Origin: Antedon mediterranea
Lineage: Eukaryota > Animalia > Echinodermata
Direction of reading: 5' to 3'
Assembly (NCBI RefSeq): GCF_964355755.1
Contig: NC_092673.1
Coordinates: forward strand, 18,535,648 to 18,599,647
DNA: 64,000 nucleotides
Both the position numbers and the translations under genes were made by a program. Below the pieces are notes generated by a model that worked only from the letters and a program-made list of their open reading frames with translations, ran no database searches and had not been told where the DNA came from. Below, in pieces: positions 1,744-39,500 of this stretch. Numbering within the stretch: position 1 is the first letter of the stretch; every line of letters begins with the position of its first letter.

Positions 1744-2295
1744 ATTCTAAAACCTACAACAATTTCCGAATTCTAAAAGCTAGTCTTGGTAAATGCTTTG
1801 TCGGTGAAAGATACCGTTGGATAAGGTTCCTACTATTTGATAAGTTGGATGTCAGTGAAATTACAAATATAGATTTCAATGGATATGACTTACTCAATCA
1901 CCTTGAACACAAAGGTTTAATCTCACCAACTAATGTTAACTTGCTGTTAGAGATTACAAATACATCTGAAATCCAACAGGCCAAAGATCTTGTATCAAAG
2001 TATATGAGAAACAACAACATTCAGAATAGACATACTGGTAAAACCAAGTTGTCGTCTTACAGAAAGCGACTGTTCAAGGCCCTGAAACAAGTTGACCCAG
2101 ATGCATTCAGTAACATTATTTCTTTCTACAAGTTAAGAAAATATAGCTTCTCCAATGTTTGGGATGCAGTTCTCCATCTGGAGAAAGAGGAAGAATTAGC
2201 AGATGATCCAGACAAAATACAAATATTTGCAGATCGTCTTGGAGGAAAAGCAAGAAAAATACTGTTGGAGTATAATGTTGTTACAGAATTTGAAG
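1744..2295 (+). CDS. Gene 1 internal exon: tandem death-effector-domain (DED)-like module #1 (phase 1-1, 552 nt)
   Basis: Acceptor ttttatttgcag|, donor GAAG|gtaatt. Open frame SKTYNNFRILKASL...FLLFDKL...DLLNHLEHKGLISPTNVNLLLEI...LSSYRKRLFKAL...WDAVLHLEK resembles the DED1-DED2 pattern of caspase-8/cFLIP prodomains. Confidence 0.8.
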
Positions 2296-10383: not shown

Positions 10384-10911
10384 ATTTCTCAGAGGATGAT
10401 TTTAAACAGTTGATTGTAGACTTTGCACAATGGTTTGATCAACATGGACTCCTTAACAGGCTACAAGTTCTATTCATCGAAATGGTAGATGACTTTGAAG
10501 CAGTGAGAAGGGTTACCAGTACACGTGACCTGTTAGCACTTTCAATTGCAAGTGGGCTAATAAGTCAAACAAATCTGTCTGTACTGTATGATGCAATAAA
10601 AGTAACTGAACAATTTGGCTTTCAGTCGGTCATTAAAGAAAAGCTTCCTGCTTTCAAGAATATCAAGAAGCGTAAGGTAGCATCATTTTCACCACACACA
10701 AAACAGATTTTTAATTTGGGAAAAAGTCTTAGTGATTCAGATAAAGAAACTCTAGATGGACGATACAACTTCCCTGTTTTTAAGAAGTATGAAAACAGCT
10801 GGAGTCTGATATTAGATTTTGAACCTCGAGGGTTGCTGAGTGAAGACAAACTAGAAGAAGTTAAGGAGGTTCTTAATAGAGGTAATGTTGGAACATCCGG
10901 TTCAAATCCAG
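10384..10911 (+). CDS. Gene 1 internal exon: tandem DED-like module #2 (divergent subtype, 528 nt, phase 1-1)
   Basis: Acceptor tttctttatccatag|, donor CCAG|gtatgt. Frame DFKQLIVDFAQWF...DLLALSIASGLISQTNLSVLYD...FSPHTKQIFNLGKSLSDSD...WSLILDFEPRGLL. A possible alternative donor lies at 10881. Confidence 0.75.
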
Positions 10912-11555: not shown

Positions 11556-11600
11556 ATAAAGAGGAGTCAATTGTAGACTCGAAAGGTGAACCAAACTCAG
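11556..11600 (+). CDS. Gene 1 small linker exon (45 nt, phase 1-1): KEESIVDSKGEPNS
   Basis: ttttcattctgcag| ... TCAG|gtatgc. Open and frame-preserving. Confidence 0.65.
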
Positions 11601-11627
11601 GTATGCTATACTATATTTATTATCACT

Positions 11628-12541: not shown

Positions 12542-12586
12542 TAAAAGGGGTTTAGGAAATCGGTCGCGTTTAATTTTGTACTTTAG

Positions 12587-12856
12587 TATATTAAGACAAA
12601 CAAAGTTGAGAATGCTAGCGATATACAGCCATTGTCACCAGTTCGAAAACGGCTTTTTAAAGCCTTTAACAAGTTCAGAAAGAGGATATGGCAAAAGAGA
12701 TTGCTTACTACGAATTGAGAAAATTTGGCTTCCAAAATATTTGGGATGTGGTATTCAAATTAGAGAGAATCGGAGCATTAGAAGATGAACCAAGTAAAAT
12801 AGAGAACTTTGCACTTCGTCTTAATCGACGTGCAAAGGATATACTACTTGATAGAG
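12587..12856 (+). pseudogene. Broken tandem-DED exon (second half only, 1-nt frameshift)
   Basis: YIKTNKVENASDIQPLSPVRKRLFKAF/QVQKEDMAKEIAYYELRKFGFQNIWDVVFKLERIGALEDEPSKIENFALRLNRRAKDILLDR then G|gtac. It aligns by eye with the 3' half of exon 1744-2295. Frameshift near 12668; the 5' half is missing. Confidence 0.8.
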
Positions 12857-13986
12857 GTACTTAAATTAATTTTGTTTAAATATTACTTTATTAAAGAAAT
12901 AATAAATACTAATTTGTAAATATAAAATAACAATAATTGTTAACAAGCATGCCATAAAAGGATTATCTTCTGCTTTGTCATGTTTTGTTTAGTGACTTTT
13001 TACTGAATAAAAAAAAATAAAAATAAAATAATAGATCAAATAACCATTTTTATTTTGTATGGTAGGGATAAAAAGAAAAAGCCTGAAAATTACGAATATG
13101 TCATTGTGATTATGATTTATTGATTAATTATTTACTTAATTCATCATATTTCAAGAGTGTTAGCTGATTATGGGCCATCAACAAGACAAAACGACAAACA
13201 AAAACAAAGAATTATAAAAATTAAAATAAAGATATGAACAAGATGATAATGACAAAGAAGTTTGTGTTAATGAGAATGATATTACTCTAATATTAATAAT
13301 TAGTATCATATTTTAACACAAAGAATATAATGCTGATTATTAAGACAAACATAAAGTGTGTAGTTTTGTTGTAGTTGTTTCTAAATCTGATTATAATATA
13401 GAAAGTTATTATAATGTTTCACAAATCTATCTGAAAACAATGATTTCAACAATAAATATAGCATAGCATAGTTAAATGTAGACAGTGAACAATTTTATTC
13501 CCTGGTAGTAGTGTGTTCTCTGTTTTGGCCCTCCTCAGCACTCCACATTTTGCTGAAACAAATAAAAATATAAATTTACATCATTGTGTGAACAGGTGCC
13601 ATGTTAAAATATATTAAATATAAATTAGACAAATTTCATATATATCTTGTTTTTAAAATAGACTTATATATATATTATATAAAAATCATAGATAAAATCT
13701 CATTGATAAGATGATGAGGGAGGGTACCAATGCCTATTATTGTAGATAAAGGTTATATATAATAATATGATTGTTATCATGATGATGATCAAGATATGAT
13801 AATGACACTCGGGCTATATTCAGACATAGCCTTACCAGCCTTTGTAACCTACACCAGTATAAAAATATAGAAATTATTATTATATGGTAGCATTATGAAC
13901 ATTAACCATTTTTGCCAAGTTGTGTCTTTTAATATTTCTTTTTATGAAAAATATGTGTTAAATATTTTGTATGTTACATTTTTTAG

Positions 13987-14064
13987 ATTTACCAAGTTTT
14001 GTTAGTGAACGGTTTGAGAAACTAATGGTTGAAGAACAGAAAACAAAGCTTAAACCAGTGATTG
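13987..14064 (+). CDS. Gene 1 small linker exon (78 nt, phase 1-1): LPSFVSERFEKLMVEEQKTKLKPVI
   Basis: ttttttag| ... ATTG|gtaagt (consensus donor). Open and frame-preserving. Confidence 0.7.
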
Positions 14065-14188
14065 GTAAGTTTAAGAATAGAAGGAGTTGTATGGTTCAAT
14101 GTAACATATTGTGATTAAAATGGTATTTCAGTAGTGGTCGACTTGTAGTAAGAATTTCATTCATTTAGTTTATCATATATTATATAAT

Positions 14189-14881
14189 TGTAATATAACG
14201 ATATACTGTTATATTTAAGAAATCGACCTCTGTATCGGAATTTAAATAGGTTCACAAACTTGACCCAGAAAGTCCGGAGGAGAGTTTGTCCAGATGTTTT
14301 AATGACCATTTAGTTTATAATAGAATCCCTAAAGAAAACACTTAGCTTAACTTTGCGACCGTTCCCATCATAAAACAATTAGATACTGACAGTTTTAAGC
14401 AGAGATTCGACAGGGCCAATTCATCATTGTAACCTCCCCAGATAAGATCAATCATTCCCACTTAAACACCCCTGGATCAACTTAGGACCAATCGTTACCC
14501 TCACAGATGACGTAATGACATTATGCAAATGAACTGAGCCAATATACTCCCAAGTTTCAGAAGGGCCCAGACACACCTTACAGCCACCTCACGGAGCACA
14601 CACCTTACAGCCACCTCACGGAGCACACACCTTACAGCCACCTCACGGAGCACACACCTTACAGCCACCTCACGGAGCACACACCTCACAGCCACTTCTT
14701 CAGAAGCAGACCTACACACTTCACACCTCACTGACAGCATCATTGAACGTCCGTTCCTTATCTATACTTATAGTTGTATATTGTACTGAAGTATTATACT
14801 GAATAAATAATATATGTGTTACGACAGTCAAGCGAGTTAGAGTCTTTCATTAGTACCTCAACAACCCAACATTATATTACA
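14189..14881 (+). repeat. Gypsy 5' LTR (693 bp), including a 27-bp minisatellite CACACCTTACAGCCACCTCACGGAGCA (about 4.5 copies)
   Basis: Direct repeat of 23330-24024. Confidence 0.95.
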
Positions 14882-15614
14882 TGGTGGAAGACCCAAATTT
14901 CATAAGGAACGGAGTGAGAAAACAAGAAATAAACACAAGACACGAAGACGAAGACGAAGACAAAAATAACCATATTTGTTTGAAAGGAGAAAACCAGAAA
15001 TTTACTTTGACTCAAAAGACAAGCTGAAATTATATTTGAATGAGATCGAGACAAGCAGAAATTTGATCAAATTATTACCATTGGATGAAGACAAAGAAGA
15101 TAATCGAGGAAGACACAAAAGACAAGCTGAAATTATATTTGAATGAGATCGAGACAAGCAGAAATTTTATCAAATTATAACCATTGGATAAAGACAAAGA
15201 AGATAATCTAGGAAGACCCAAGCAGAATCAAAACAGAAGCAAGCGGACAAGAACTATTTCGTTTGAACACTTTCAACTTCACGCCGTTTTTTTTCGATCG
15301 TTTTTTTTAACATTTATTTTTTTTGACCATTTTGAACATTGATGAACACCTTTCGCATTTTTTTTTAATTCGTTGTTTGAAAGTTGAACATTGATGAGCA
15401 CTTTAACATTTCTTTAATTCGTTGTTTGAACATTTAAACATTTTTGAACACTTTTTGCATTCCTTTAATTCATTTTTAATTGGATCCGAAGCATTTGGGG
15501 TAAGTCAAAACCATTTTGATTTTGATTTGTAACCTTGATTGAAAAGTGAGAGTTTACATATATATATACACTAAATTGTTTTTAATATTTGATTAATAAT
15601 TAATATTATAAAGT

Positions 15615-16580
15615 ATGGTCGACGTTGTTGATAACGAAGTAATTTTAAATGAGCCCGTCAATCCTCATCCCGTGCCCCACCTAAGACAAACCGATTTCCT
15701 TCCCAAAAGATATGACGGTTCCATAACCGATCACGACCAATGTAGTGCACACTACTTATCGTTTACCGACTACCTTGAGGCCCACACTTTAGAAAACCCT
15801 GTAAACAATGCCCAATTAATTAATGTAATAAGTATTTTCAAACGTAGCCTTCAGGGCCAAGCTAGACTCTGGATTGAGGGAAAGCAGTTCGATTCACTAG
15901 AATCCTTAAAAACCCAATTCATCAACAGGTTTAGTAAAAACAAATCAATCTATGCGCACATAAGAGAATACGATTCAATTACATACACCACTGGCGACAA
16001 CGCCGAAAAGCACTTAACCAAAATCAAACAAGCAGCAGACAGAATTGGATACGCTGACCAGCAGATAAAGAATAAATTTATTTCGACCCTTCCACCAAAA
16101 TGTAGAGCAGCTGTAGCCATGTCCACCCCAATCGATGCCACTATTGAAAATATCGTAAATAGCACACAAAATTACCTTGACCTTTCCGTAGATGATGCCA
16201 CACGGGAGGTTTCATTCAACATCAATAAGGAAACAGATAGGCCTAATAGTCTCGAATCGCTCCAACATGAGATAAATTCTCTCAAGTTAGACATGGCCAC
16301 AACAAAACGATCCCTTAATGATGATACTCGACGCTCACGTTCCCCCACCCGAAATTATATCCCAAGACGAAACCGAAGCCCAAGCCCATACAAACCCCGA
16401 TTCCAGACCCCACCGACCCCAAGATATAGACAACCTCCCCCAACCTGTTATTACTGCGGGAAACCAGGCCACATAGCAAGGCACTGCCGACAACAAAACC
16501 GTTCTTACGGAAACTATCCCCCGCCATACCCATACCAACAGTCAAACAATTACTACCCTAGCCACCAGCAGGATTTTTAA
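15615..16580 (+). CDS. gag: Gypsy Gag
   Basis: 321-aa ORF with CCHC zinc knuckle CYYCGKPGHIARHC. Confidence 0.9.
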   Translation: MVDVVDNEVILNEPVNPHPVPHLRQTDFLPKRYDGSITDHDQCSAHYLSFTDYLEAHTLENPVNNAQLINVISIFKRSLQGQARLWIEGKQFDSLESLKTQFINRFSKNKSIYAHIREYDSITYTTGDNAEKHLTKIKQAADRIGYADQQIKNKFISTLPPKCRAAVAMSTPIDATIENIVNSTQNYLDLSVDDATREVSFNINKETDRPNSLESLQHEINSLKLDMATTKRSLNDDTRRSRSPTRNYIPRRNRSPSPYKPRFQTPPTPRYRQPPPTCYYCGKPGHIARHCRQQNRSYGNYPPPYPYQQSNNYYPSHQQDF

Positions 16581-19500
16581 AAAGGGGACTAGATGCCGCC
16601 TATAATCTGGCCCCCCATACTAAATACGACAATTTTAAGGCAAAATACTTAGGGAATTCAGATAATATTGATTTGTTACTTAACGACAGAAATTACGTTA
16701 AAGGAAATTTACCAGATGGTAGAAATGTTTTAACTTTATTTGACAGTGGTTCAACTAGAACTATAATCTCACAATCGTACGTTAATTCCTCACTTTATTT
16801 ATCGCGTTTAAAGCCAGTTAAAGTGAACACAACTAAATTTCGATTAGGTAACGGTGACTTCTTATATGCCAACCACTTAGTGCAATTCGAATTATTTATC
16901 CAAGGACACAAATTTAAAATGTCAGCATTAATCGTTAAAAATTTGACAGGTATTGACCTGATACTTGGAACCGAAACATTGTCTGAACTCGACGGTACTT
17001 TAAATTTTAAGGAAAACACATTTCGCATTAGACCAAAGATTTTTAGCTTTCGTCCTGTACACAAGCTTTTTCTTAAACCCGGTGATACTAAAACAGTTAA
17101 ATTAAAAGGAAGGGTTCCCGCCTTTGTACGCAATTCTGATGTTGTTCTACATGCAACCACCCATATTTCAAAACTTTGTCCATCAGATATGTTAGTAAAA
17201 TTACATAGAGGAGAAACCAACATTGATATCACTAACAACACAAACAGAAACGTATCTCTAAATACACATCAACCTATCGCGAGCCTTCACTTAACCAACC
17301 TTGTAACAGTTACTAACGACCTACCAATTGATAGAATAAAGTTGACCAATGACAACGCAAACAAGTACCCACATTTAGAACGTACAGACCCATTGCTAAC
17401 TTTAACCGAGGAAGAAATAATTAGAAAACAAGTTGATTTAACAGACAGCGTTTTAACACATAGAGAAAAAGAAGATTTGTATAAAACCTTACAACAAAAC
17501 AGAAACGCATTTTCACTTTATGGTGAACTATCTAGCTGCCCAAACTTCAAAGCTGACATACACCTCTCTAACGATGAACCATTTTTTATTCGACCATACT
17601 TCGCGACAGACAAAGACAAAAATGTTATTGAGGCCGAATTGAACAAATTAGTCAAACTAGGAATCTTAGCAGTAGGACACCAATCGTATACTTCCCCTGT
17701 CCTTCTTGTTTCAAAGAAAAATTCAAAAGATAAAAGAGTTGTCACAGACTTTCGCTATCTCAATTCCAGGATAAAACGTATTAATCACCCATTCCCATTA
17801 TTGGCCGAAACTTTGAAAACAATAGGTAACGCTAATGCACAGATTCTTAGCGTAATTGATTTGAAATCAGCGTTCCACTGTGTACCATTAGCCGAACATG
17901 CCCAACAATACACAGGTATAGCTTCATATCATGGTGGAAAGCATTATTATTATAAGAGATTAGCACAAGGATTAAACGTTTCGCCAGGTATATTTCAAGC
18001 AAAGATTGACGAAATTTTAAATGAAATCCCAAATTCTAGAGAATTCTGTATCGCCCATCACGATGATATTATCTTATTTAGCCAAGACAAATTTGCTCAT
18101 AAGCAGCACCTTGTTTCCGTTTTACAAGCCCTACAATTAAATGGTTTTAGAATTTGTCCAAAGAAATGTAAGTTATTCAAGAATAAAGTGCAATATATGG
18201 GACACACCATCCTGATTAATTCTTCAGGACACGCATGTATCACACCATTAGGCGACAGGTGTGCAGCTATCCGAAATTTGCCAGTCCCACGAACCCATAA
18301 AGAAACTAAACGATTTATTGGTGCAGTAAATTATGTATCCCATTTTTTCCCTCAAATACAATCAATTTTACGTCCGTTACATACACTCGCGAGTAAACGC
18401 CGAAAATTTGTTTGGTCTACTGACCACCAGAAAGCATTTGACGAAATTAAACAATTAATGGTTAAACCACCAACTCTTCAAATGCCTAGAAAATAAGGTA
18501 GATTTACGCTATATAGCGACACTTCAAGAACCGCAACAGGTTCATATTTAACACAAACAGTAAACGGTAAAGAACACATAATAGGTTATTATTCCAAAAT
18601 CTTACCACAAGCCTGTCAACGATATAGCGTCACAGAATTAGAGTTATTTGGACTTTACATTAACGTTTCAGCATTTCGACATTTACTAAAGGGTTGCGAA
18701 TTTGATGCATTCGTAGACCACTCAGCAATTGTACAAATTTGGAATTCAAAAGATCAGCCATGTACACCCCGTTTACAGAAACTAATATTACGATTGTCCG
18801 GATACATTTTCCAAATTGGTTATAAGAAAGGAACTGAATTAGTTTTAGCAGATTTTCTCTCCCGAGCCCCTCGTGACGACGATTCCGAAATTGATCAAGT
18901 TGTACCCATTGCATTTAATATTACAGAGACTGAATCTCTTAACCCGATTACAAACACATCGACTTGCAGACCAGTAACAAGGTCATACGCCAAGCAAATG
19001 GGAATAAATATACCTGACCTACATAAACCCAAACCAGTACAAACGCCTGTCATTATTCAAAACCCAGTGACAACAAACACGCGACCTACACCTCAACCTA
19101 CCGCTACACCGCAAATAATCACGAGACAACAAACAAACGCACATCGATCACCGCCCATCACAACGCCACCCATCGTAACACCACCCCCAATACGTAATGT
19201 AAACATTCGACAACCTCCAGAGGAACGACTAGTAGACAAAAATAAACAAAGCAAAGACACTACACATCAAAATGTACCAGTTGAATTGTATACATCGCCC
19301 AAACCACTAGTACCCAACATAACCGAATTTAAGTCAGCACACATCCCAAAACAACAAGACTTAGATAGATTAATGGATGTTATTCAAAGAAAGATAATTA
19401 GAGATTATAACCTCCCAGTAGATGTTAAACAATTACGTGTTGAACAAGAAACTTCACCATTTTTTAAGCCAGTTTACGATTATTTAGTTCATGATATCCT

Positions 19501-22424
19501 TCCAGCTGATAAGAAAGCAGCTCGTGCAGTTCAGAATAAGTCAGAGCAGTACATATTGTGCAACGGTTTACTATTCCGTTTATTTTTCCAAGATAAAGGT
19601 GGAGAATTTGTATTGCAATTAGCTGTTCCTGAAAACTTAGCAGAGACCGTTATTTCTCAGTATCACGACAATTTGTTAAGTAGCCACCAAGGTACGATGC
19701 GTACTTACCTTACTATTAGGAAATTATTTTACATGCCCCTTATGTTCGAGAAAGTCAACAATTATACCCAAGCGTGTCTTAGATGTCAACAATTTCGTCC
19801 CAAAACCGATAAATTACGTCCTTTACACGATCGAGTACCAGCAACTTACCGTCCCTTTCATACACTCAGTCTAGATTTTAAGAGTATGCCAACATCACCT
19901 TCAGGTTTTAAACATATTATGGTAGTATGTGATGAGATAACTAGATTTTTGATTTGTGTACCTTTGAAATCCATTGATGCCGAAACAATTTGTGAAGCAC
20001 TAATTCAAAAGGTCATCAGTATTTTTGGACCCCCATCTCGTCTTATTTCAGATGCAGCAACCTCCCTTACAGGAAAATTATTAACACTATTATGTAACAC
20101 CCTTAATATTGATAGGAAAATCATCAGCGTCCACAATCACGGTAGTTTACAAGTTGAACGTCATATCCGCACCGTATCGGACCTGTTAAAGGTCAACCTT
20201 AACCAATTCGGAACAGATTGGGTTAGATTTGTATCAACAACATGTTATGCTTATAACTTGTTTTCATCCCCACATCTAGGAAACCACTCCCCTTACGAAT
20301 TAGTTTTTGGCCGCCAACCTCCAAGTTTGACCTCATTAGCATTTAACCCTATTTCAGGATTGTCTCATTCCTATGAAGAATACTTTGAACACCTCAAGAA
20401 GAAATTTCAAAACATTTCACAGACAATGCTACAATTACAGCGAACACAACAAAACGTCCAAAACTCAAAGATTTCCCAACGCTTAGAAAAAAGTCCAATT
20501 TACTCAGTAGGACAACTCGTATATTTATACAAGCCAACATCATCATCACTAACGGCAAATTCAAAGAAAATCGCCGCAGAATGGGTCGGACCTTTAGTAA
20601 TTCATGAAGTACTAGACAGAACACATTACATCCTAGCGACGATTAAAGGAGAAATACTTCGCGACGTATTCAATTATAACAGACTGAAACCCTGTTTTAT
20701 GAGAACACCCAAAGAACGCAACAATTTTACACATCTCCAAAAACTGAAACAATTGTTGAATGAACCCACCGATGATAATAACGATAAAATCCAAAACACC
20801 ATTAATGTAGTAAATGACGAAACCAATGTTGAATTTGTAGACGAACATGATAAGACACCCAACCAATTGCAATCAGATACCCTTACACATCCAACTAAGA
20901 TAGAACCCCTTAACTTGCAACCTTACATTGACTGTGTAGAGAATAACATGGGATTAGCATCCCCATTCCAAATGAAAGAAGAACAAATTAAAATGGACCT
21001 GAAATGGAATTTCGATTTTCAAGAAATTCACACATGTTATTTAAATGTATCAAATTAACACAAACCCACACAAATAAAAACAAAATGTATAGTATTTTGA
21101 GTAAAAACGAAATTTTAAGATACCATGGTAAATTAGCGAAAATTACTCACGCCATTGCAATATTCTATTTCAACGGCCGTCGGAAGCCTCTATATTCACG
21201 ACGTCACATATACATACGATGATATCGAGAGCGTGTATGCCGCCCGATAGTCAGTGTGAATGATCGACGGCCTGGAAAGATACGCGAAGCGTTGACACTA
21301 ATACTAATTTATTCAATATCTAATGTTGTTGAAATATAGGTCCCTAAAATGTACTTCGTTTGTTCTAAAACCCGAATTTAGAAGGCCTACCTCCCAAACC
21401 TTTACTAGGCCTCTATGCCCCCAATCCAGAGCGCGGAGTCGATCCACCACCCACATCATGCGGCGAGGCTCCGTTTCATGTGTATCCAAGGACCAAAGCG
21501 ATATCAACAACTTGCTGCGCTCATTGTCAAGCCAAAGTAAAATATGAATAAAATTCGTTTTCGAACTGCCTGATTCGTGACAAATAAATTATCATCTCAT
21601 ATTACTAATTTAATTCTGCTAAACTAAAAACTAAAGAAACTAACAAATTTTAGCAGTATAAATTACGAACGATATACAAAATACACGAACGGAAAATATG
21701 GATACGCATCATTGCGCACGGAGCTGTATCCCGGACAACGTTGCCAGGCCAACTTCGGTATTGCCAGAAAAAAACCGTTGATTTTAAGATTTTAAATCGT
21801 CATTTACTCGATGAATAACCGTTTATACGGTAATAATTTTATCTAAAAAAATTCTAAATACGTTTCTGCAAATGCACAAGCATTTTTTAGAAAATACTCC
21901 ATAGATTTCAAGAGTTATAGCCAAAAAACTGCAAATTTTCCATTGGAGGGATAGGAATATATTCGCAAAGTGACGTCACCCGCGAATTTTTTTGATTTTC
22001 AAATGGGGCTTTCCCCAAAAGGGCCAATTTATATTTTGTAACAATATACATTCTAGCAACACCTAATAGCCCCCAAAACATCATTCTAAAATGAAAAAAA
22101 ATCGAAAATCCATTTCAGGTCCATTTTAAGGAACAAACTAATTTAATTATGACGGCACCTAATGATTCATATATGACATTAAACCGAGGTAGATTTAAAG
22201 CAGGACATTTCCAAGTTTTAGTTTCATACTCTAAACCGACTTCAGCCAAACGCAACACTGATAAAACAAAACAAGAATCTAATGATCGCAAATTTTGGTG
22301 GAATATTGACAGATATAACGATACAGATAAATTGATTAAAGAGATCATTAATGATAAACAGATACCGATAAGTGGATCGCCAAAACGATTCATAAAACGT
22401 TTGTATAATGCAACGAATTACTGA
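16574..22424 (+). pseudogene. pol: Gypsy Pol (protease, RT, RNase H, integrase, C-terminal extension), interrupted by one stop and one insertion
   Basis: Lies in the -1 frame relative to gag. Motifs LFDSGST (PR), IDLKSAF...HHDD (RT), SDTS...TELEL...VDHSA (RH), HHCC and DDE (IN). ORFs 16673 and 18794 share a frame separated only by TAA at 18494-18496. Removing 20992-22125 and one TTAA joins it to ORF 22149-22424. Confidence 0.9.
20992..22125. mobile_element. Non-autonomous TIR DNA transposon with TTAA TSD (Kolobok-like), nested in Gypsy pol
   Basis: TTAA|AATGGACCTGAAATGGAATTTCGATTTT ... AAAATCGAAAATCCATTTCAGGTCCATT|TTAA. Purine-purine 5' termini with a TTAA TSD fit Kolobok better than piggyBac (CC termini). 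Confidence 0.85.
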
Positions 22425-23329
22425 TTTAATTTTTTTTGCAAGATTATTTTTAAATTACGACATTTGCTAAATTATTGATAGCATAGTCTACGTATTTGAT
22501 GAGATTTGTTTAGTAATGATGTGATTTCAGTTAAAAGAGAATTGAATTTATGTGTAAGTATTGATTTTGTAACGAGTTTGATAATGATTAATTTTGAATT
22601 TTGAATGATCGATATATTGAGATATTAAAAAGAACGACAATCATTTTGTAACAAATATTTTGTTTAACCTTTGAGTCGTTAATCTCAAGCATTAATTAAT
22701 TGATATACAATAACAGGAGATTTTCTTAGTACTTTTAATTGTAATTTTTTTTGACATTGAGTACAAAAGTCGAATTTGTCGATTGATTGAAATCGTAATT
22801 ACCTGTGAATATAAATGCTTAAATCGATAAAGTTGTGACGATAATGATATATTGTGGATAAGTTTGTGTCAACGGGACACACACATTTGTTTCTTTAAAG
22901 TTTTAAGTGATTGAGTTTGATATTTTGATTTTAGGCTAATCAGCCACAGTTTTCTTGAGTTTTATGTTTTAATTTGATGATTTATGTTTGAAGGCCATTA
23001 GAACGCGATGAGTTGTCGCACAATTTGACGTATGTTCAATGTAACATACTATTTTTTTAAGTTTTGTATTTTTATTTTTAACTGATTTATGTTTGATTTA
23101 CGCGAATTTTATACCAAATTCATTTTTGATTTTAATTTTTTAAAGAGAGAGAAGAGAGAGAGTGAAAGTGATAAGGTTACACTTCAGAGTCAATGGTTTT
23201 GGCTAACTCAATTTTTGCTTATATGTATAATAATGTTTTTTTCTTTTATATAACTTTAATTTTGCATGCCACTATTATAACCATTTTTATATTTTAAATA
23301 GATTAAAAAAAAAAAGGGAAACAGAGGGA

Positions 23330-24024
23330 TGTAATATAACGATATACTGTTATATTTAAGAAATCGACCTCTGTATCGGAATTTAAATAGGTTCACAAAC
23401 TTGACCCAGAAAGTCCGGAGGAGAGTTTGTCCAGATGTTTTAATGACCATTTAGTTTATAATAGAATCCCTAAAGAAAACACTTAGCTTAACTTTGCGAC
23501 CGTTCCCATCGTAAAACAATGAGATACTGACAGTTTTAAGCAGAGATTCGACAGGGCCAATTCATCATTGTAACCTCCCCAGATAAGATCAATCATTCCC
23601 ACTTAAACACCCCTGGATCAACTTAGGACCAATCGTTACCCTCACAGATGACGTAATGACATTATGCAAATGAACTGAGCCAATATACTCCCAAGTTTCA
23701 GAAGGGCCCAGACACACCTTGCAGCCACCTCACGGAGCACACACCTTACAGCCACCTCACGGAGCACACACCTTACAGCCACCTCACGGAGCACACACAC
23801 CTTACAGCCACCTCACGGAGCACACACCTCACAGCCACTTCTTCAGAAGCAGACCTACACACTTCACACCTCACTGACAGCATCATTGAACGTCCGTTCC
23901 TTATCTATACTTATAGTTGTATATTGTACTGAAGTATTATACTGAATAAATAATATATGTGTTACGACAGTCAAGCGAGTTAGAGTCTTTCATTAGTACC
24001 TCAACAACCCAACATTATATTACA
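23330..24024 (+). repeat. Gypsy 3' LTR (695 bp)
   Basis: Direct repeat of 14189-14881, with only a few substitutions and a 2-nt indel seen by eye. Confidence 0.95.
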
Positions 24025-24263
24025 TAATATACAAATTCTTATAATTGCGTGCAACTTCAATAGCTTAAATTGTCCTTGGCTGTACTGCTATGATTATTAG
24101 TTTCTCACTCATGGTTCAAAATTTGGCACAAAACATTTTCAATGAGTTGAAAGATTAAGAGAATTATTTAATTGGTCAGATGTTTTGTCTTATTCTGACG
24201 TAATTGCACTTTATACTCAGTTCAATGAGAACACTTTGCGAACAAATTTAAAAGTATTTCACA

Positions 24264-24832: not shown

Positions 24833-25359
24833 ATCGAATGGAGTTAATTGTGGGATCCACAGGTGGAACTCTTCACCTTAAGGATGAAGACATCAAGTTG
24901 GACATACCACCTGGAGCAATAGAAGAAGGAAAAACAGTTAAAATATCACTAGAAAATATTTTGGAGGAAACAGACATGCCTGTATCTCATCCACTTGAAT
25001 CAATAATATCACCTATTGTTAAATGTGGACCAGAAGGCACCATCTTCCACAAGCCCTGTTTACTGTCATTTCCACACGATGCTGTAAATGAAGAGTTTTG
25101 GGAATTCTCTTTACTTTTTAAAGAGTGCTTTCAAGATGAATGGAAAGAAAAACCAGAAATTGATGAGAAGGACATACGTTTTACTTTAAAAGATGGTCAA
25201 TTGTGTATATATTTAAATCATTTCTGTTGTCATGGATTCATGGGTCGAATTAGAAATGTTTTTCATGCAAAAAAAAGTATAAAGTTGGGAGTTTTTGGAA
25301 AGATGCTTGTAAATGAATATAAAATTCGAGTAAAATTCTGGAAATCAGGAAAATACAGG
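24833..25359 (+). CDS. Gene 1 exon: ZU5 domain and start of UPA
   Basis: tttattctgcag| ... AGG|gtaatt. VGSTGGTLHL...IKLDIPPGAIEEG...ISPIVKCGPEGTIFHKPCLLSFPH...W...LNHFC is the UNC5/PIDD/ankyrin ZU5 signature. Confidence 0.9.
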
Positions 25360-25678
25360 GTAATTTTTTATTTATCAAAATATGTTTAAAAAATTATAAA
25401 TTGAAAAAGAATTTGTTAAAATTGGAAACAGAGAAAATATGGTAAACATTACAATTTGAGAAAATCAGAGAAAGTGATCAATCACACCGCCATTAAAATG
25501 TTTTTGGTTATTATTTTTCCAGTTATAGTTGTTTTTAAACATTTTTTTATTTGATTAGATTGATTCCTGATATAACAAAAAATCAGAGTTAGAAAGATTT
25601 GTACTTTATTAAACAGTCTAGTGTTTTAAACAGTTTTTACATCTTTGAATATTTTTATGTATTCTGTATGCACTTCAG

Positions 25679-25816
25679 AAAGTTGAAGAAGAAACATCAA
25701 ACCAGGGTGAGAACCTATTAGAATCAGTTACAGTTATACATTCTTTGTATAAAAACATGGAAATTAGTGTTGAAATACCAAACCAGGAATGGCAAGTAGA
25801 CGGTGAAAATATAAAA
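25679..25816 (+). CDS. Gene 1 exon: UPA-like domain, middle part (138 nt, phase 0-0)
   Basis: cacttcag| KVEEETSNQGENLLESVTVIHSLYKNMEISVEIPNQEWQVDGENIK |gtaaga. Confidence 0.75.
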
Positions 25817-26104
25817 GTAAGAATTTTGTTCAATAATTTAAAAAAAAATCAATTTGTTTTATCACAACATGTACAATATCAAATCAGAGAGCTATAAATT
25901 TATACCTCACTGATCAAATAGGTGTATGCGGTGATCACTGTGCATAGTAACCAAGGAGTTTCAGTAATGTTTTAATGATTGACAAACACCTGTAAATTCA
26001 CAGGTGTTTTTTAAAAGTTCCGAAAATTTGCTTTTAGAGCTTTCTACAGTTATCCAACTTTTATGAAAAATCAATCTAAATAACTGTATGACTTTTTCCT
26101 CTAG

Positions 26105-26243
26105 ATTATACCTGCTGAGTATCTATGGTGTAAAAGACCATCAAAGACATTTTGTTTAAAAAGAAATATTTCGACAAATGTTCTGAAGGCAAAAGTATCG
26201 CTATCACAAGATTCAAATGATATTCCTGAAGTGGAAGTGAATT
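26105..26243 (+). CDS. Gene 1 exon: UPA-like domain, end (139 nt, phase 0-1)
   Basis: tttttcctctag| IIPAEYLWCKRPSKTFCLKRNISTNVLKAKVSLSQ... |gtacgt. It resembles the UNC5 UPA pattern IP..HIW....TF.L.R.....L..K..V.Q. Confidence 0.75.
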
Positions 26244-26581: not shown

Positions 26582-26611
26582 GTGATATTGAAGTATTGGT
26601 TTCAATTCCAT
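26582..26611 (+). CDS. Gene 1 micro-exon (30 nt, phase 1-1): DIEVLVSIP
   Basis: tttttttgcag| ... CCAT|gtatgt. Confidence 0.55.
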
Positions 26612-26870: not shown

Positions 26871-26900
26871 GTAAATTTGGACCATCAAGATCAGATCCAG
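26871..26900 (+). CDS. Gene 1 micro-exon (30 nt, phase 1-1): KFGPSRSDP
   Basis: tttgttacag| ... CCAG|gtataa. Confidence 0.55.
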
Positions 26901-27428: not shown

Positions 27429-27961
27429 TCACTGTAAATCCATGGCAAGAAAGGTTCAACAAGTTGAAACATGACCTTAGTCTACTCTATGTTGGTGATA
27501 AATTTCTCTTACTGAGATGCTGTCTCTTTGACCACATAGGTTTACTGCACCTTACTGATCCAGGTTGCACCACCGCACATTACCTATTTAACAAACTCCA
27601 TGAAAAGCGTTATATCTCGCCTACTAATGTCAGTCTATTGTTAGACATTGCTAAAGTATCAGATCTGAACGATGCTGAAATTCTTATAAATCAGTATGTG
27701 ATTGACAACAAGGTTCCAAACACTGATGAAGAAAAACTTTCACCATATAGGTCAAAATTGTGTAAGGCATTAAAACAATTTGACTTAAATACTTTAAATG
27801 GTGTAATTGCTTTCTATGGATTGGATTCAATAAAAATGCAATTTCCAACCATTTGGGATTTAGTGTTTCACCTGGAGAGAATTGGAAAATTAGTCGAAAA
27901 ATCAGAAAGAAAGAGGTTTGCTGAACTTCTTGGACCAATCGCAAACAATATACTGTTAACG
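27429..27961 (+). CDS. Gene 1 exon: C-terminal tandem DED-like module (phase 1-0)
   Basis: tttctttttgcag| ... ACG|gtatgt. Frame ERFNKLKHDL...LRCCLFD...LFNKLHEKRYISPTNVSLLLDI...LSPYRSKLCKAL...IWDLVFHLERIG is a clear paralog of exon 1744-2295. Confidence 0.8.
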
Positions 27962-28084: not shown

Positions 28085-28102
28085 GTACTTGCTGATGAAT
28101 GA
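28085..28102 (+). CDS. Gene 1 probable last coding exon (VLADE-stop)
   Basis: Acceptor ttttttatacag|. Phase 0 matches the previous donor; GTA CTT GCT GAT GAA TGA. Confidence 0.55.
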   Translation, partial: VLADE

Positions 28103-28114: not shown

Positions 28115-30425
28115 CAATCCAAGCAGGTACCATGTTAGACAATTAAGCAAGTACCATTGCCATGTGAGACAATCTAGCAACTACCATTATTGTGTGAGAC
28201 AATCAAGTAAGTACCATTGCCATGCGAGACAATCTAGCAACTACCATTACTGTGTGAGAAAATCAAGCAAGTACCATTGCCATGCGAGACAATCTAGCAA
28301 CTACCATTACTGTGTGAGAAAATCAAGCAAGTACCATTGCCATGCGAGACAATCTAGCAACTACCATTACTGTGTGAGAAAATCAGGCAAGTACTTCGTA
28401 ATTTCAATGTTAACCATGAGATCTGTAATTGTGTTCACCCAGATATTGTTCCCCTTAATAACATTAATATTACTGAAAAAACTATTTTCGAGGCTCTATT
28501 GTCATTGAAACCCAACAAATCCCCTGGACCAGACGGGATTACACCTAAAATGTTATCCATGTCAGCTCCAATTATTGCCCCAGTGTTGTGCAAAATGTTT
28601 AACAAGTTCTTAACGGATGGCTTTGTACCAAAAGATTGGAAACTCGCGAATGTCACTCCTATTTTTAAGTCAGGTAATCGTAACGATGTTAATAATTATC
28701 GACCCATATCGCTATGTTCTATTATAGGTAAGGTTTTTGAACGTATTATAGCAGATAACATTCTTTTTCATCTTCAATTTTTTGGATTTATAAGTCCCAC
28801 GCAACACGGGTTTTATCCAGGTAGATCGTGTGTTACACAGGCCTCAGCGTTATATCATGATTGGTCACAAACAATGGATGTTAGACAACCTCCTGTAATT
28901 GATGCAATATTCCTTGATTGGGAGAAGGCCTTTGACCGTGTTCCCCATGATTTAGTAATCAAGAAACTGCACAACATGGGAGTATGTGGACCTCTCCTAA
29001 AGTGTCTTCACTCCTTTCTCAGTGACAGATTCCAACGTGTTGTTCTTAATAAGGAGCATTCTGATTGGGATAGAGTGGGCTCGGGTGTTCCTCAGGGATC
29101 AGTGTTAGGCCCGCTTCTATTTAATCTCTTTGTTTATGACCTACCTCTAAATACCTCTTCTGTTATGAAGCAGTATGCAGATGACACAGTAATTTATAAA
29201 CCTGTATTCAGTCGTCATGATGCACTTACCTTACAACAGGATCTTTGTAAAATTTCCAAATGGTGTGAGGATAATAAAATGAAATTAAATGCAAAGAAGT
29301 GTAAAGTCATGCACATAACTAGGAAACGTAATTATATCCCTCATTTTATTTATACAATCGAATCCAATCCCCTAGAAGCTGTTAATTCACATAAATATCT
29401 TGGTATTAACTTCTCACGTGATTTAACATGGTCTGCTCACGTTAATGATGTATCGATGAAATCAATGAGAATGCTTGGGTTTATCAAACGGTTTGTAGGT
29501 TTCAATGACACCGAAATTTTACTACGACTTTTTAATGCACTATGTCGACCTGTTATTGAATATGGTGCTCCTGTGTGGGATCCACATCAAAAACAACATA
29601 ATATAGCTATTAACAAGTCATTAAGACGGGTTACTAAATTGTGTGTTGAAGGCGATTTCACTGACAGGCTTAAGATACTAAATTTACCAGATATGGTTCA
29701 AAGAATGAAATTTCATAGTATAATTTTTGTAGTTAAGTGTTTGCATAATTTAATTGATTTTGATATATTTGAATACCTTACAATTAATTCTCGGTATCCA
29801 GAGTCGCTCACCTTTAAACACATGTATGCTAGAACTAATGCATTTAAATACTCCCTGTTTGTTAATTTTCCTCGAATATGGGAATGTATCCCGCATGAAG
29901 TTCGTAACAAAGTCCTGTTTAACTTTGGGGGGTTTAGAAGGGATTTGAAAAAATGTATTACTGATATCGAATTCATCTAGACTATCACTGTGTTTTTATG
30001 TCTTTTGCGTTTTTCGTACTATTAGTTGGGAAAGCCACTCGACAGTGCAGTTCTTTTGAACTGATCCACTTTTGGTTACCCGCAGGTGCTGATAGTACTT
30101 TGTTCTGTTTTGTTGAATGATGCCGTGCCTTGTTTATGATTTGTGTATGTTACCTGGAAATTGAATAAAATAAAAAATAAAAAAAAAAAATACCATTGCC
30201 ATGTGAGACAATCTAGCAACTACCATTATCGTGAGAAAATCAAGCAAGTACCATTGCCATGTGACACAATCTACCAACTACTATTACTGTGTGAGAAAAT
30301 CAAGCAAGTACCATTGCCATGTGAGACAATCTAGCAACTACCATTATCGTGTGAGAAAATCAAGCAAGTACCATTGCCATGCGAGACAATCTAGCAACTA
30401 AATTACTGTGTGAGAAAATCAGCAG
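28115..30425 (+). repeat. 30-bp (60-bp dimer) tandem repeat in the putative 3' UTR, split by a LINE
   Basis: Alternating units AATCAAGCAAGTACCATTGCCATGCGAGAC / AATCTAGCAACTACCATTACTGTGTGAGAA at ~28115-28394 and ~30191-30425. Confidence 0.9.
28395..30190 (+). mobile_element. 5'-truncated CR1-group LINE with open RT frame (28499-29980), 3' UTR and poly(A)
   Basis: KSPGPDGI, NYRPISL, QHGF, LDWEKAFDRVPH, GVPQGSVLGPLLF, QYADD; ends AATAAAATAAAAAATAAAAAAAAAAAA. Confidence 0.92.
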
Positions 30426-35440: not shown

Positions 35441-35811
35441 CACGCTGCTGCTCTAGCCCGCTACGTCACACGAGATGACTCATTCATTAGATGAAATCAA
35501 GCAGCTTTATAGTACTACACTTTGACATTTTTGTTAAAATGGAAACTCCACTATAATTTATTGGTACCACCTGTTGAATCCAAAAACGGCTGAGAAAAGA
35601 GTCTAACGACAAATCCCAAAGCATTCTGGTATTTATGAGTCCCATGATATAATTCGCTGTCAGATAATCATTGAATTATTATCAAAACAGTCCATTGAAG
35701 TTTTTGTTTGTAATAGGATACTTGAAGTATCTAGGCGTGATGAAGTGACCCCCAGACTTGACCTTAGCAATAACAATAAGCGAGCAGCGTTTTTTGTAAG
35801 AAATATTCTTG
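35441..35811 (+). mobile_element. Short (~370 bp) Helentron-like element inserted in the BEL 5' LTR
   Basis: Absent from the 3' LTR, which has a T-run at ~42475-42480. Its 5' ~165 bp and 3' end are homologous to the ends of 34154-47355 and 52442-55793. Confidence 0.75.
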
Positions 35812-36530
35812 TTTATGATGTTATTGATACATTATCGCAGTTGTATGCTATTTAGAATAACCTACTGTAGTTTGGAAATCTATACATCATTTGTATTAAG
35901 GTATAACGATTATAAAGTGTAATGCCTGAGTGGTGCCTCATTTCGATTCATTGGAGGGCAATTTAAGTTTTGGTTGCCAATAGCAACTGGATAGTTGAGA
36001 GGAGATGGGTTATAAATTATAAACAAGGATCGAATTATTTATATTGCAGCTGTTTTGAACTGGGAGTAGTTCAAGTGCATCTGTTTACTGTGATTGGTAT
36101 ATTTGAGGCGTCAAAGTCAAGTAGGTTTATATTTTGAACCCCATGGCTCGTTTTAACTTGTAGTGGCAATTGATAAGGAATACGTTTGTTACTTGTTGCT
36201 TTAATGGTAACATTGTTGTGATCGCTATTCTATTGATATGTTTATATTAATTTTAATTGGTACACTTATACACCTTTTAATTTAACTCATTATAATATCG
36301 CTGTAATTTCTTGAATAACGTTGTATTCTGTAACACATTATAGAAAGTAATGTAGTTTCCTTTATCTTCTTTTAGTCATCAGAACAGAACGGAAGATCGG
36401 TCTATTGTAAATAAATTGTAGATATTATATTTGCTGGATCAGTGTCTTTTGTTATCTGCGTCGATTGACCACACACGCCACCAAGCGAACTCGCGTAGTA
36501 CGCTACAGTGATTGACTAGCCTATACGAGT

Positions 36531-39500
36531 ATGGCAGAAGATAGGAAGACTACGCTGACTTTGCAGCGCCGAAACAGAAAGGGATTGGTATCAAGAAGTT
36601 TGAACACTTTGAGCGCATTGTTAAAAACGGAAGGAGTTACTATTGTTGACATAGACGACCAATTAGAGCGGGTGGACGAGGCATTCAAAGTAGTAGAAAA
36701 GGCCCATCTCGCGTTGTTGGATGTCATTGATGACGATGACATATTTGAGCAAGAAGAGGAGTGGATGGCGAAAGTAGAAAAAGAATATACAGATCAGAGG
36801 AGGAGCGCATTGGCTCATTCTTGCGAATTGAGGAAAGTAGACCATGGAAATGGAAAGGTCGACGCTGCCGACAACCAACAAGGAACTAAGGCGGTCGGTG
36901 AGCTAAAGACTAGTAGTAGTAATTTAAGTATGGATAGCCTAGTGAAGGCGATGTCTTTACCTAGGCCCGAATTACAAATGTATGATGGCAATCCTTTAAG
37001 GTATTGGCCATTTATAAGAGCCTTTGATGTATTAATGTCGGAAGTATCTGACGACAATTTTAAACTGACTACCTTATTAAAATATTGTAGGGGTAGAGCA
37101 AGTGACGCCCTACAATGTTGCCTTATGCGGCCCCCAACTGAAGGGTACAAACTGGCAAGGGAAATCCTGTCAGAGAGGTTCGGAGATAAAGGGACGATCG
37201 TCCAGACCTGGGTAGATAAGATTGTAAATCGCCCTAAGATTGACGTTGCCGAGTTAAGGCAATTTACCGACGATTTATCATCCTGCAGGGAAACGCTAGA
37301 TGCGATGGGTTTTCTTGGGGAATTAAATAACCAACGTAGCCTTAGGTCAATAATTGACAAGTTACCACGATACTTACAGACAAGGTGGGTTAAAGAATAT
37401 CAAAGGATAAAGCTTAAAGGCAGTCCACCTACCATTGCACATGTTGTTGACTTTGTAAAATCGGCCTCTAAGGAGGCAAATGATCCTGTATTTGGTAGCC
37501 TTGTCTCGGGTAGTGTGGGTAACAAGCCAGAGAGACAGACGACCAGCAACAGAGAACCCGAAAAATGCCGAAATAAGAATTTTGCCATCGGATCCCCGTC
37601 CTGTCAAATGTGTGAAGGTTCTCATTCTTTATTTGGTTGTCTACAGTTTAAAGAAAAGAATGTTGAAGAAAGGCTATCATTTGTAAAGAGGAACCGGCTA
37701 TGCTTTAATTGCCTAAAACCTGGACATAACGCATCAAGATGTCTATTGAATAGGACATGCTCGGTAGCTGGATGTGGACAGAAACACACCAAGTTCCTTC
37801 ATATAATTAAGTCAAAGGCGACACAACAACAACAACAACAAGCCCCCGCCTCTAAAGCTCAGCCACATCAAGCAGAGCAGACACCAGCTGCTAGTGTACC
37901 GCAGCAACCGCAGACGCAGCCAGTTGGGCACGCCGACAAGATGAACACCTTCATCTCATTACCAATCTTGCCGGTCACAATACGATCACCGGAAAGTGGG
38001 ATAGAGGTAGACGCATACGCACTATTGGACAGTGGGAGTACAAGCTCATTTTGTACAGAGAGATTGGCAAAGACGTTGAAGGTGAGAGGTAGACCGGAGA
38101 ACCTGATCATTAACACCATCGGTGATAATGAAAGCAGTGTACCCAGCAGAATAATCAGTTTGGAAGTGAGAGGCATGGGTGGAGGAGAACCTATAGCACT
38201 CCCACTAGTGTATTCCACACGAAAAATGACAATTCGCTCTTCGACAAGTCGAGCCTTGAAGTTGGATGAAGTGAACAAATGGCCTCATCTAAATGGAGTT
38301 AATCTCCCACGACTAGACAACTCAGAGGTGGACCTCCTAATTGGGCTAGATGTTCCAGATGCGTTACAACCGCTTGAAATAAGAGCCGGTGGAAAAGGGG
38401 AACCGTATGCCACACAAACATCCCTTGGGTGGTCCCTAAACGGTCCTGTTATGGGAAGAAATGAGAAGAGATCTTCCACGTTTGCTTGCGAGATTCAGAA
38501 CAACGTGAGGCTTGATCAGATACTGGAGAGATTTTGGACAACTGATTGTGACGTACCTGCATTGGATGACGATGACAGAATGATGTCTGTTAATGACAAA
38601 AGAGTAGTTAAACTATGGGATCAAAATGTACAGTTTAAGGATGGACATTACCATTTACCTATTCCCTTCAAGCAACGCCCGCCTATTTTACCGGACAATA
38701 GACATACTGCTGAAGTCAGACTTGGCCATCTCCGACGGAAATTGGTGAAGGATGTAAGCCTTAAAGCCAAATATGCTGAGGTTATTAAAACCCTAGTTGA
38801 AGAAAATCATGCAGAACCTGTAGGTAACCGCAATTCGACGTTTCCAAATTGGTATCTGCCACACCACGCTGTCCCCAAGAAGAATGGTGACGTACGAGTA
38901 GTATTCGATTGCGCGGCAAAACATAGGGGTCTATCGCTAAATGACGTAGTCATGCAGGGACCAGATCTTGTCAACAGCCTGATGGGGGTCCTTCTGAGAT
39001 TCCGCCGGCGACAATACGCCATCATGGGTGACATCAAGTCACCTGTTTCACCAGGTTAGGGTGCCACCAAATGAAAGGGAGGTTCTTCGATTTCTTTGGT
39101 GGACAGACGATGAAATGACGGAAGTGAGTACCTACCGTATGTGTGTGCACCTGTTTGGTGGAACCTGGTGCCCAAGCGCGAGCACTTATGCTCTAAGAAA
39201 GGCGGCACAAGATAACCGCGCTAAAGTTGACGTTAATATTACTGAGATTGTGAATGAAAATTTCTACGTGGACGACGCTCTAATCTCTGTTTCAACTGAA
39301 GAAGAAGGAGTTAAGGTTATAAAGAATCTGACGGCCTTGTTATCCATGGGAGGGTTCAAGTTGACGAAATGGATAGCCAATAGCTCAGAAATCCTACGTC
39401 ATGTTCCAGTGGAGGACAGGGCCACGACGGTTAAGGAGCTTGACCTAGAAGGTGCCATCCTACCATCCGAAAAGGCACTAGGGATGAAGTGGAATGTCGA

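What the first reader, a model, noticed from the sequence alone, without database searches (positions are those of the whole stretch)
25219..25227. His-Phe-Cys at the ZU5 autoproteolysis position
Seen: the ZU5 ends ...LCIYLN-HFC-CHGFMG (CAT TTC TGT). Established: PIDD and UNC5CL self-cleave at HF|S, and NLRP1/CARD8 at SF|S, at the end of ZU5 via an acyl shift, and cysteine is the equivalent nucleophile in inteins and Hedgehog. Inference: cleavage at F|C would give a ~340-aa UPA-tandem-DED fragment, analogous to UPA-CARD or PIDD-CC, with the N-terminal DED array as a variable sensor or inhibitory part. Alternatively the Cys variant may be uncleaved or redox/nucleophile-gated.
Basis: partly seen in the sequence, partly recalled or inferred. 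Interest (0 to 1): 0.75.

Follow-up and report, generated by a model that had tools for sequence, protein, structure and literature searches.

The report
Cysteine self-cleavage site, feather star protein
A feather-star death-signalling protein has cysteine exactly where related proteins use serine or threonine to cut themselves in two, so it likely still self-cleaves; the swap recurs across many relatives and looks like an ordinary variant rather than a special switch.

Summary
Confirmed. CAT TTC TGT (His-Phe-Cys) lies in a ZU5 exon. Its Phe aligns with UNC5B Leu677, the published equivalent of CARD8 Phe296, and structurally with NLRP1 Phe1212, so the Cys is at the autoproteolytic nucleophile position. 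A spliced contig joins this exon through UPA to a tandem DED; cleavage would free 340 aa. Cys is not special. Of 131 related ZU5 domains, 103 have His-Phe, followed by Thr 71, Ser 21, Cys 11 and nothing else. Cys recurs in sea stars and an acorn worm beside Thr paralogs, and the closest paralog has HFS. That pattern fits interchangeable nucleophiles, so self-cleavage at F|C is likely (about 0.65) but untested; motif-bearing GAIN domains can stay uncut. The proposed N-terminal DED array is in frame, but no transcript link was seen, and the annotated protein lacks both DED regions. The scan noted HFC before, in a sea urchin protein. Verdict: a Cys variant with a tandem-DED tail of the known ZU5-UPA-death-fold self-cleaving module; modest interest.

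The parts
25219..25227 (+). His-Phe-Cys; predicted scissile bond Phe|Cys, Cys (25225-25227) the predicted nucleophile
24833..25359 (+). Exon: whole ZU5 domain (with FPH motif His80 = UNC5b His624 = CARD8 His252) and start of UPA
   Evidence: Pfam ZU5 E 5.5e-21; splice ends; 100% identical to P0010; His register
25679..25816 (+). UPA exon
   Evidence: spliced in X1 contig; fold match to UNC5B, CARD8, NLRP1 UPA
26105..26243 (+). UPA exon
26582..26611 (+). 30-nt linker exon (the annotated model P0010 reads on into the intron and stops here)
   Evidence: joints; P0010 matches the joined frame for 277 of 285 residues
26871..26900 (+). 30-nt linker exon
   Evidence: joints
27429..27961 (+). Tandem death-effector-domain-like exon, C-terminal
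   Evidence: Pfam DED weak, E 0.066, under cut-off; ESM Atlas top three hits are 171-199-aa DED clusters, scores 0.90-0.93, recognition 2236 just under the tool's 2300 mark; 89% identical to P0002; spliced to UPA in X1
28085..28102 (+). Inferred last coding exon (5 codons and stop)
   Evidence: AG acceptor and same ending as paralog P0002; joint not covered
13987..14064 (+). Likely upstream 78-nt linker exon
   Evidence: 77% identical to the stretch before ZU5 in P0002; phase-compatible; covered in X1 but no joint listed
11556..11600 (+). Candidate 45-nt linker exon
   Evidence: splice signals and phase only
10384..10911 (+). Candidate N-terminal tandem-DED exon; link to the ZU5 exon not shown
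   Evidence: no splice joint listed
1744..2295 (+). Candidate further N-terminal tandem-DED exon; link not tested with reads
   Evidence: Pfam DED E 1.8e-05, under cut-off; phase-compatible
14189..24025 (+). LTR retroelement inside the intron just upstream of the ZU5 exon (not part of the protein)
   Evidence: 696-bp terminal repeats 99.3% identical; TG...CA ends with TAAT on both flanks; gag/pol-like frames by eye

Best explanation
His-Phe-Cys sits at the self-cleavage position of a ZU5-UPA-tandem-DED protein of a feather star, and the cysteine likely acts as the nucleophile that would cut the chain between Phe and Cys. Shown: position, fold, exon chain, and restriction of this column to Ser/Thr/Cys. 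Inferred from PIDD1, CARD8, NLRP1 and Nup98: the buried Phe strains the turn, His activates the thiol, an N-to-S acyl shift gives a thioester that water hydrolyses, and the two pieces stay together because the last ZU5 strand belongs to the C-terminal piece. Further inferred, weaker (about 0.4): removal of the N-terminal piece would free the 340-aa, 39-kDa UPA-tandem-DED fragment to oligomerise and recruit DED-bearing caspases or adaptors. Cys is most likely interchangeable with Ser and Thr here, not a dedicated switch.
For: Register with CARD8 Phe296 and NLRP1 Phe1212. Model at pLDDT 92.5 with the motif in the turn before the last ZU5 strand; best folds UNC5B (Z 24.8) and CARD8 FIIND (Z 15.7, rmsd 3.7, 238 aligned). 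Census of 131 domains with all three motif columns (of 149 hits; 17 lacked a column, 1 fragment dropped): His-Phe in 103, then T 71, S 21, C 11, no Ala, Gly, Val or Asn; it is the only column of the domain at 100% S/T/C, mean 0.16. Loss of the motif is clustered (7 changes against a shuffled mean of 25.6), with 12 of the 28 in one clade holding a named UNC5B receptor, and canonical UNC5 is reported not to cleave. The 11 ZU5 domains named for the same species read C 5, S 4, T 2. HFC also in Patiria (2), Acanthaster (2 domains), Ptychodera and an unnamed ENA protein; three of these have Thr sisters from the same species. Print: Ser, Thr or Cys start this chemistry and GAIN cleaves at L|T/S/C.
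Against: No experiment. The H-X-S/T motif is not sufficient in the related GAIN fold: ADGRB2 has HLS and stays uncut even with hydroxylamine. All characterised ZU5 cleavers that I read about use Ser. Cys tips are scattered and mostly terminal (10 changes, 15 of 200 shuffles at 10 or fewer), which also fits short-lived, less efficient variants. The census profile was seeded with crinoid HFS/HFC/HFT rows and shows only the best 150 of 511 hits. The annotated protein P0010 stops before the DEDs, so a DED-less form may exist. The DED call is below Pfam's cut-off. No partner caspase or adaptor was identified.
Confidence: 0.65

Rival explanations
1. The Cys variant is uncleaved or barely cleaved: the N-to-S shift reverses before hydrolysis, or helper residues are missing, and the protein works as an intact UNC5-like autoinhibited ZU5-UPA-death-fold scaffold.
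For: Motif-bearing but uncut GAIN domains exist. The closest solved structure by sequence and fold is the non-cleaving UNC5B. Cys is rare (12 of 131) and mostly on terminal branches.
Against: If departures from Ser/Thr were simple loss of function, other residues one base change away (Ala, Gly, Asn, Ile, Arg, Pro) should also follow His-Phe; 0 of 103 do. UNC5B lacks the motif (QLG). Both ZU5 copies of Acanthaster P0113, far apart on the tree, keep HFC, and 5 of 11 domains in this species have it.
Confidence: 0.22
2. Cys is functionally distinct from Ser/Thr: cleavage is redox- or thiol-gated, or the new N-terminal Cys makes the freed UPA-DED fragment an oxygen-dependent Cys/Arg N-degron substrate, or the thioester is captured by a nucleophile other than water.
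For: Cleavage would expose N-terminal Cys, the entry to the oxygen-dependent Cys-Arg/N-degron pathway in human cells (abstract and passages). Cys is enriched in this species (5 of 11 against 7 of 120 elsewhere). Two paralogs would start Cys-Phe, a favoured pair.
Against: The residue after Cys is not conserved (C, F, F, S, Q in the five domains), and Ser there is disfavoured. The nearest paralog has Ser. Cys is hardly more clustered on the tree than shuffled labels. The pathway was not checked in crinoids.
Confidence: 0.08
3. The locus is a decaying copy in a fast-turnover cluster and the Cys is a drifting change without function.
For: Two broken tandem-DED exons lie in the window (12560-12857, 56077-56513), a young LTR element sits in the upstream intron, and the annotated model is truncated.
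Against: All exons from ZU5 to the stop are open with GT-AG ends; a contig of another study is spliced over five introns and differs at only 3 of about 560 ZU5-UPA bases; the model folds at pLDDT 92.5.
Confidence: 0.05

Closest known systems
PIDD1 (LRR-ZU5-ZU5-UPA-DD; HF|S at S446 and S588)
   Same: His-Phe-nucleophile at the end of ZU5, followed by UPA and a death-fold domain; released piece would match PIDD-CC in layout (37 kDa there; 39 kDa here).
   Different: Cys instead of Ser; one ZU5; tandem DED instead of a death domain; no LRR seen. PIDD1 ZU5 was not aligned directly.
CARD8 and NLRP1 FIIND (ZU5-UPA-CARD; SF|S)
   Same: Same fold (Z 15.7 to 7jkq_B) and same scissile register; structural His (CARD8 His252) kept as His80.
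   Different: His rather than Ser before Phe; about 7% identity; DED not CARD; new N-terminus Cys-Cys, not the Ser-Pro that fits DPP9 in NLRP1 (that motif is recalled); CARD8 His270 and Glu279 equivalents not mapped.
UNC5CL
   Same: ZU5-UPA-death fold without the UNC5 ectodomain, reported to keep autoproteolysis (review passage); several relatives are auto-named 'UNC5C-like'.
   Different: Tandem DED; no transmembrane helix seen in this model; the HFS site of UNC5CL is recalled, its primary paper was not held.
UNC5B cytoplasmic domain (3G5B)
   Same: Best sequence and fold match (E 7.1e-13; TM 0.82; Z 24.8); source of the automatic name 'UNC5B-a-like'.
   Different: UNC5B has QLG and is not cleaved; it is a netrin receptor with an ectodomain. 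The name is a misleading label here.
GAIN/GPS, Nup98 and bacterial MAIN domains
   Same: Homologous autoproteolytic fold (Z 8-10 to GAIN chains); nucleophile varies in nature: L|T/S/C in GAIN, HFT in Entamoeba Nup98, HX(S/T) in MAIN.
   Different: Different proteins and outputs; not death-fold signalling.

Membership tests
Autoproteolytic ZU5-UPA-death-fold proteins (PIDD1/UNC5CL/FIIND type) | ZU5 domain | tested here: met
   Pfam ZU5 75 bits, cut-off 21; fold
Autoproteolytic ZU5-UPA-death-fold proteins (PIDD1/UNC5CL/FIIND type) | UPA domain directly after ZU5 | tested here: met
   Model residues 145-271 match rNLRP1 UPA 7crv_B (Z 10.6) and the UNC5B match spans 1-269; paralog P0003 Pfam UPA E 6.5e-05
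Autoproteolytic ZU5-UPA-death-fold proteins (PIDD1/UNC5CL/FIIND type) | C-terminal death-fold domain in the same transcript | tested here: met
   Spliced to the tandem-DED-like exon in one contig; DED by ESM Atlas, Pfam weak; the annotated model lacks it
Autoproteolytic ZU5-UPA-death-fold proteins (PIDD1/UNC5CL/FIIND type) | (His/Ser)-Phe-nucleophile at the turn before the last ZU5 strand | tested here: met
   nucleophile is Cys, not the Ser of the characterised members
Autoproteolytic ZU5-UPA-death-fold proteins (PIDD1/UNC5CL/FIIND type) | Actual cis-cleavage with associated fragments | not testable with these tools
   needs expression; motif is not sufficient in GAIN
Autoproteolytic ZU5-UPA-death-fold proteins (PIDD1/UNC5CL/FIIND type) | Released fragment oligomerises and recruits a caspase or adaptor | not tested
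   no partner known; no complex prediction run
PIDD1 orthologue | LRRs, two ZU5 domains and a death domain | tested here: not met
   one ZU5 exon in the window by tblastn with eight paralogs; C-terminus is DED-like; LRRs were not searched for specifically
NLRP1/CARD8 inflammasome sensors | SF|S motif and C-terminal CARD | tested here: not met
   HFC and tandem DED
UNC5 netrin receptors | Non-cleaving ZU5 (QLG-type) followed by UPA and a death domain | tested here: not met
   HFC; P0010 falls in a crinoid clade (99) apart from the clade holding UNC5B P0044

The most novel reading that the evidence does not exclude
A feather-star family of shuffled ZU5-UPA-tandem-DED sensors uses the choice of nucleophile as a dial: Cys copies cut through a thioester and release a death-fold fragment that begins with Cys, so its lifetime depends on oxygen or redox state (Cys/Arg N-degron), whereas Ser and Thr copies signal without that gate. 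It would be a natural thiol-based ZU5 autoprotease and a DED-output counterpart of CARD8/NLRP1.
Probability: 0.08. Interest if true: 0.75.

Novelty: new variant of a known kind. Interest (0 to 1): 0.36.

Why it matters
If cleavage is shown, it widens ZU5 autoproteolysis from Ser to natural Cys and Thr nucleophiles (Thr is in fact the commonest in the invertebrate-rich set, 81 of 131) and adds tandem DEDs to the outputs of the CARD8/NLRP1/PIDD1 'cut, hold, release' design. The near-identical HFC (P0010) and HFS (P0002) paralogs are a ready natural pair for asking whether the nucleophile changes rate, thioester trapping or fragment stability. It does not reveal new chemistry: Cys is an accepted nucleophile for this reaction in print.

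Tried and rejected
No whole genome is held, so copy number and neighbouring paralog DNA were not examined. Single-sequence folding failed (pLDDT 34) and was not used. The second homologue search (longer lengths with A2) gave only 2 proteins. No run on record as RNA was listed; X1 is only guessed to be RNA, though its GT-AG spliced contig behaves as cDNA. Laying X1 on 10200-14180 listed no GT-AG joint among the upstream exons; tables were cut (261 pieces not shown) and contigs break at paralog variants, so this is no evidence either way. The places of the 2 differences of the X1 contig within 25078-25358 were not listed, so the Cys codon in that second sample is not directly read. PIDD1, UNC5CL, CARD8 and NLRP1 did not appear in the sequence searches. 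Five primary papers were not held: Rosenblum and Blobel 1999, Tinel 2007, Liao 2014, Heinz 2012, Sun and Guo 2008; they or their supplements may already report Ser-to-Cys mutants or natural HFC. Nine paper searches showed no listing that describes a natural HFC ZU5 or a crinoid ZU5-UPA-DED family; only top listings were seen. The 'CxH thiol' motif that PMC3482391 gives for ZU5 was considered: this protein has no CxH there and the mutagenesis in PMC3210808 points to the residue after Phe. No complex prediction was run, as no partner is known. Tree is a quick LG+G4 search without a root, motif residues masked; it cannot tell gain from loss.

Full report
Observation. Bases 25219-25227 are CATTTCTGT, His-Phe-Cys, inside an exon 24833-25359 with AG and GT ends that Pfam scores as ZU5 (E 5.5e-21). 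The exon is 100% identical to the start of P0010, a 285-aa protein that its source names 'netrin receptor UNC5B-a-like' of the crinoid Antedon mediterranea. DNA contigs of one sample cover the motif without a difference. HFC-coding 9-mers occur 10 times in the window, so only the position carries weight.

Position. phmmer aligns HFC with QLG of UNC5B (3G5B). By my count the Leu is chain residue 137, i.e. Leu677, and the same offset reproduces Cys663, Cys670 and His624 named in PMC3210808, which says CARD8 Phe296 corresponds to UNC5b Leu677 and that PIDD cleaves at HF/S right after each ZU5 (parts 1-3 of 5 read). An AlphaFold2 model of P0010 built on 95 rows (mean pLDDT 92.5) has the motif at the turn between strands 121-128 and 131-138. 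Fold searches rank UNC5B first (TM 0.82; Z 24.8), then CARD8 FIIND (Z 15.7), ankyrin ZU5, NLRP1 and GAIN chains. The match to NLRP1 chain 6x6c_E ends at model residue 129 and chain residue 1212, the Phe before the nucleophile Ser1213 (Z 7.3, end points only). ZO-1, whose chain ends in HF, aligns to the same column.

Gene anatomy. From the ZU5 exon the frame runs through 25679-25816, 26105-26243, 26582-26611, 26871-26900, 27429-27961 and an inferred last exon 28085-28102 without a stop; from the Cys to the end it is 340 aa, 39 kDa. One 1270-base contig of run X1 (guessed RNA, another study) starts at 25078 and joins the first five of these introns at GT-AG ends, with 2, 0 and 1 differences in the three ZU5-UPA pieces and 57 in the DED piece. 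The annotated P0010 follows this frame for 277 residues and then stops in an intron, so it lacks the DEDs. The last large exon is DED-like: weak in Pfam (E 0.066), top ESM Atlas hits are tandem-length DED clusters (0.90-0.93, recognition slightly under the tool's mark). Upstream, exons 1744-2295 and 10384-10911 (DED-like), 11556-11600 and 13987-14064 are all phase-symmetric and would give an open 871-residue frame. Exon 13987-14064 matches the stretch before ZU5 in paralogs P0002 and P0003. No splice joint among the upstream exons was listed. Paralogs show DEDs on either side of ZU5-UPA: P0004 is Roc-COR-DED-ZU5-UPA-DED, P0006 has N-terminal DEDs, and P0001 carries the 10384-type DED at its C-terminus. 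The N-terminal array is therefore plausible but unproven. A 9.8-kb LTR element fills the intron before the ZU5 exon.

Is the third residue a nucleophile column? A profile search of 1.84 billion representatives found 511 proteins; the best 150 were listed. Realigning all 154 stored proteins gave 149 ZU5 hits, 131 with all three motif columns after dropping 17 with gaps and 1 fragment. His-Phe is present in 103, followed by Thr 71, Ser 21, Cys 11 and no other residue. Over all 131 the third residue is T 81, S 27, C 12, other 11. No other column reaches 100% S/T/C (mean 0.16). Motif loss is clustered (7 changes, shuffled mean 25.6), 12 of the 28 in a clade with a named UNC5B receptor. Small non-nucleophiles such as Ala, Gly or Asn never follow His-Phe, which argues for selection on chemistry and not on size (inference). 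Caveats: the profile was seeded with crinoid rows and the set is the top of the list.

Is Cys special? In this species the 11 domains read Cys 5, Ser 4, Thr 2; the nearest, P0002 (82% over 160 columns), has HFS. HFC also occurs in Patiria miniata (P0049, P0066), Acanthaster planci (both ZU5 of P0113), Ptychodera flava (P0094) and unnamed P0029, and RFC in Amphiura. P0049, P0066 and P0094 each pair on the tree with a Thr protein of the same species. Twelve Cys tips need 10 changes; shuffles give a mean of 11.5 and 15 of 200 reach 10 or fewer. Cys thus appears many times independently or flips often. The residue after Cys is not conserved. This fits free exchange among working nucleophiles better than a dedicated thiol switch, although Cys is enriched in this crinoid cluster (5 of 11 against 7 of 120).

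Mechanism. Shown: fold, register, exon chain, nucleophile-only column. Inferred from PIDD1, CARD8 and Nup98: strain from the buried Phe, His-assisted attack by the thiol, N-to-S shift, hydrolysis, and fragments held together by the last ZU5 strand. I put cleavage at about 0.65. The main counterweight is that the motif alone does not guarantee cleavage in the related GAIN fold (PMC13062082, abstract and passages). The downstream role, a freed UPA-tandem-DED recruiting DED caspases as UPA-CARD or PIDD-CC do, rests on analogy only (about 0.4).

Comparison and novelty. It works like PIDD1/UNC5CL/CARD8 but is none of them: one ZU5, tandem DED, Cys. Print already allows Ser, Thr or Cys for this chemistry and L|T/S/C in GAIN (PMC3321182, passages). 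Expanded invertebrate ZU5 proteins predicted to self-cleave are noted for sponges (PMC3482391, passages) and for TRADD-N fusions (PMC8195603, passages). Other papers seen as passages: PMC9162469 (also section 6), PMC10084454, PMC11760013, PMC12377780, bioRxiv 10.64898/2026.05.12.724683 and 10.64898/2026.09.13.750810. Nine searches showed no listing on a natural HFC ZU5 or on this crinoid family, but five key primary papers were not held. This scan earlier noted HFC in a sea urchin ankyrin/death-domain protein and judged it conservative; my census agrees and extends it. Verdict: real, correctly placed, a new variant of a known kind, interest 0.36.

Noticed in passing
window 27429-27961 versus 25078-26243: The spliced X1 contig differs at 57 of 539 bases in the C-terminal DED exon but at only 3 of about 560 in ZU5-UPA. 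Of 32 listed sites, in 28 codons, 17 change the residue and 11 do not. X3, from the same sample as X2, also has a divergent contig there. Suggests a highly polymorphic or gene-converted DED exon.
   Followed up: partly
window 14189-24025: Young LTR retroelement (LTRs 99.3% identical, 4-base target duplication) in the intron before the ZU5 exon; gag- and pol-like frames by eye, the pol-like frame interrupted by a stop near 18494.
   Followed up: partly
window 12560-12857: Broken tandem-DED exon (frameshift and stops) lying between candidate upstream exons; a skipped relic of exon shuffling.
   Followed up: no
window 56077-56513: Broken tandem-DED exon whose first part lies on the minus strand and the rest on the plus strand, i.e. 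an internal inversion.
   Followed up: no
window 49931-50479: Another open tandem-DED exon downstream of this gene's stop, probably a separate gene of the cluster.
   Followed up: no
window 28122-30421: A reverse-transcriptase-like frame (28358-29980) sits inside a tandem repeat just after the inferred stop codon, with repeat copies on both sides.
   Followed up: no
window 35809-43173: Second LTR element (699-bp repeats 99.6% identical, long open frames 36516-41802) nested within other repeats.
   Followed up: no
P0004, P0006, P0001, P0031, P0039, P0151: ZU5-UPA with HF[STC] is fused to very different partners: Roc-COR and DEDs, transmembrane segments, a doubled ZU5-UPA, Rel homology plus kinase, LRAT-CUB-MAM-Ig-kinase, FN3; a widely shuffled cleavage cassette in echinoderms and relatives.
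   Followed up: partly
P0122, P0124, P0130, P0131, P0139, P0142, P0117: A supported clade has TFT or SFT, replacing His while keeping the nucleophile, parallel to the SFS of CARD8/NLRP1.
   Followed up: no
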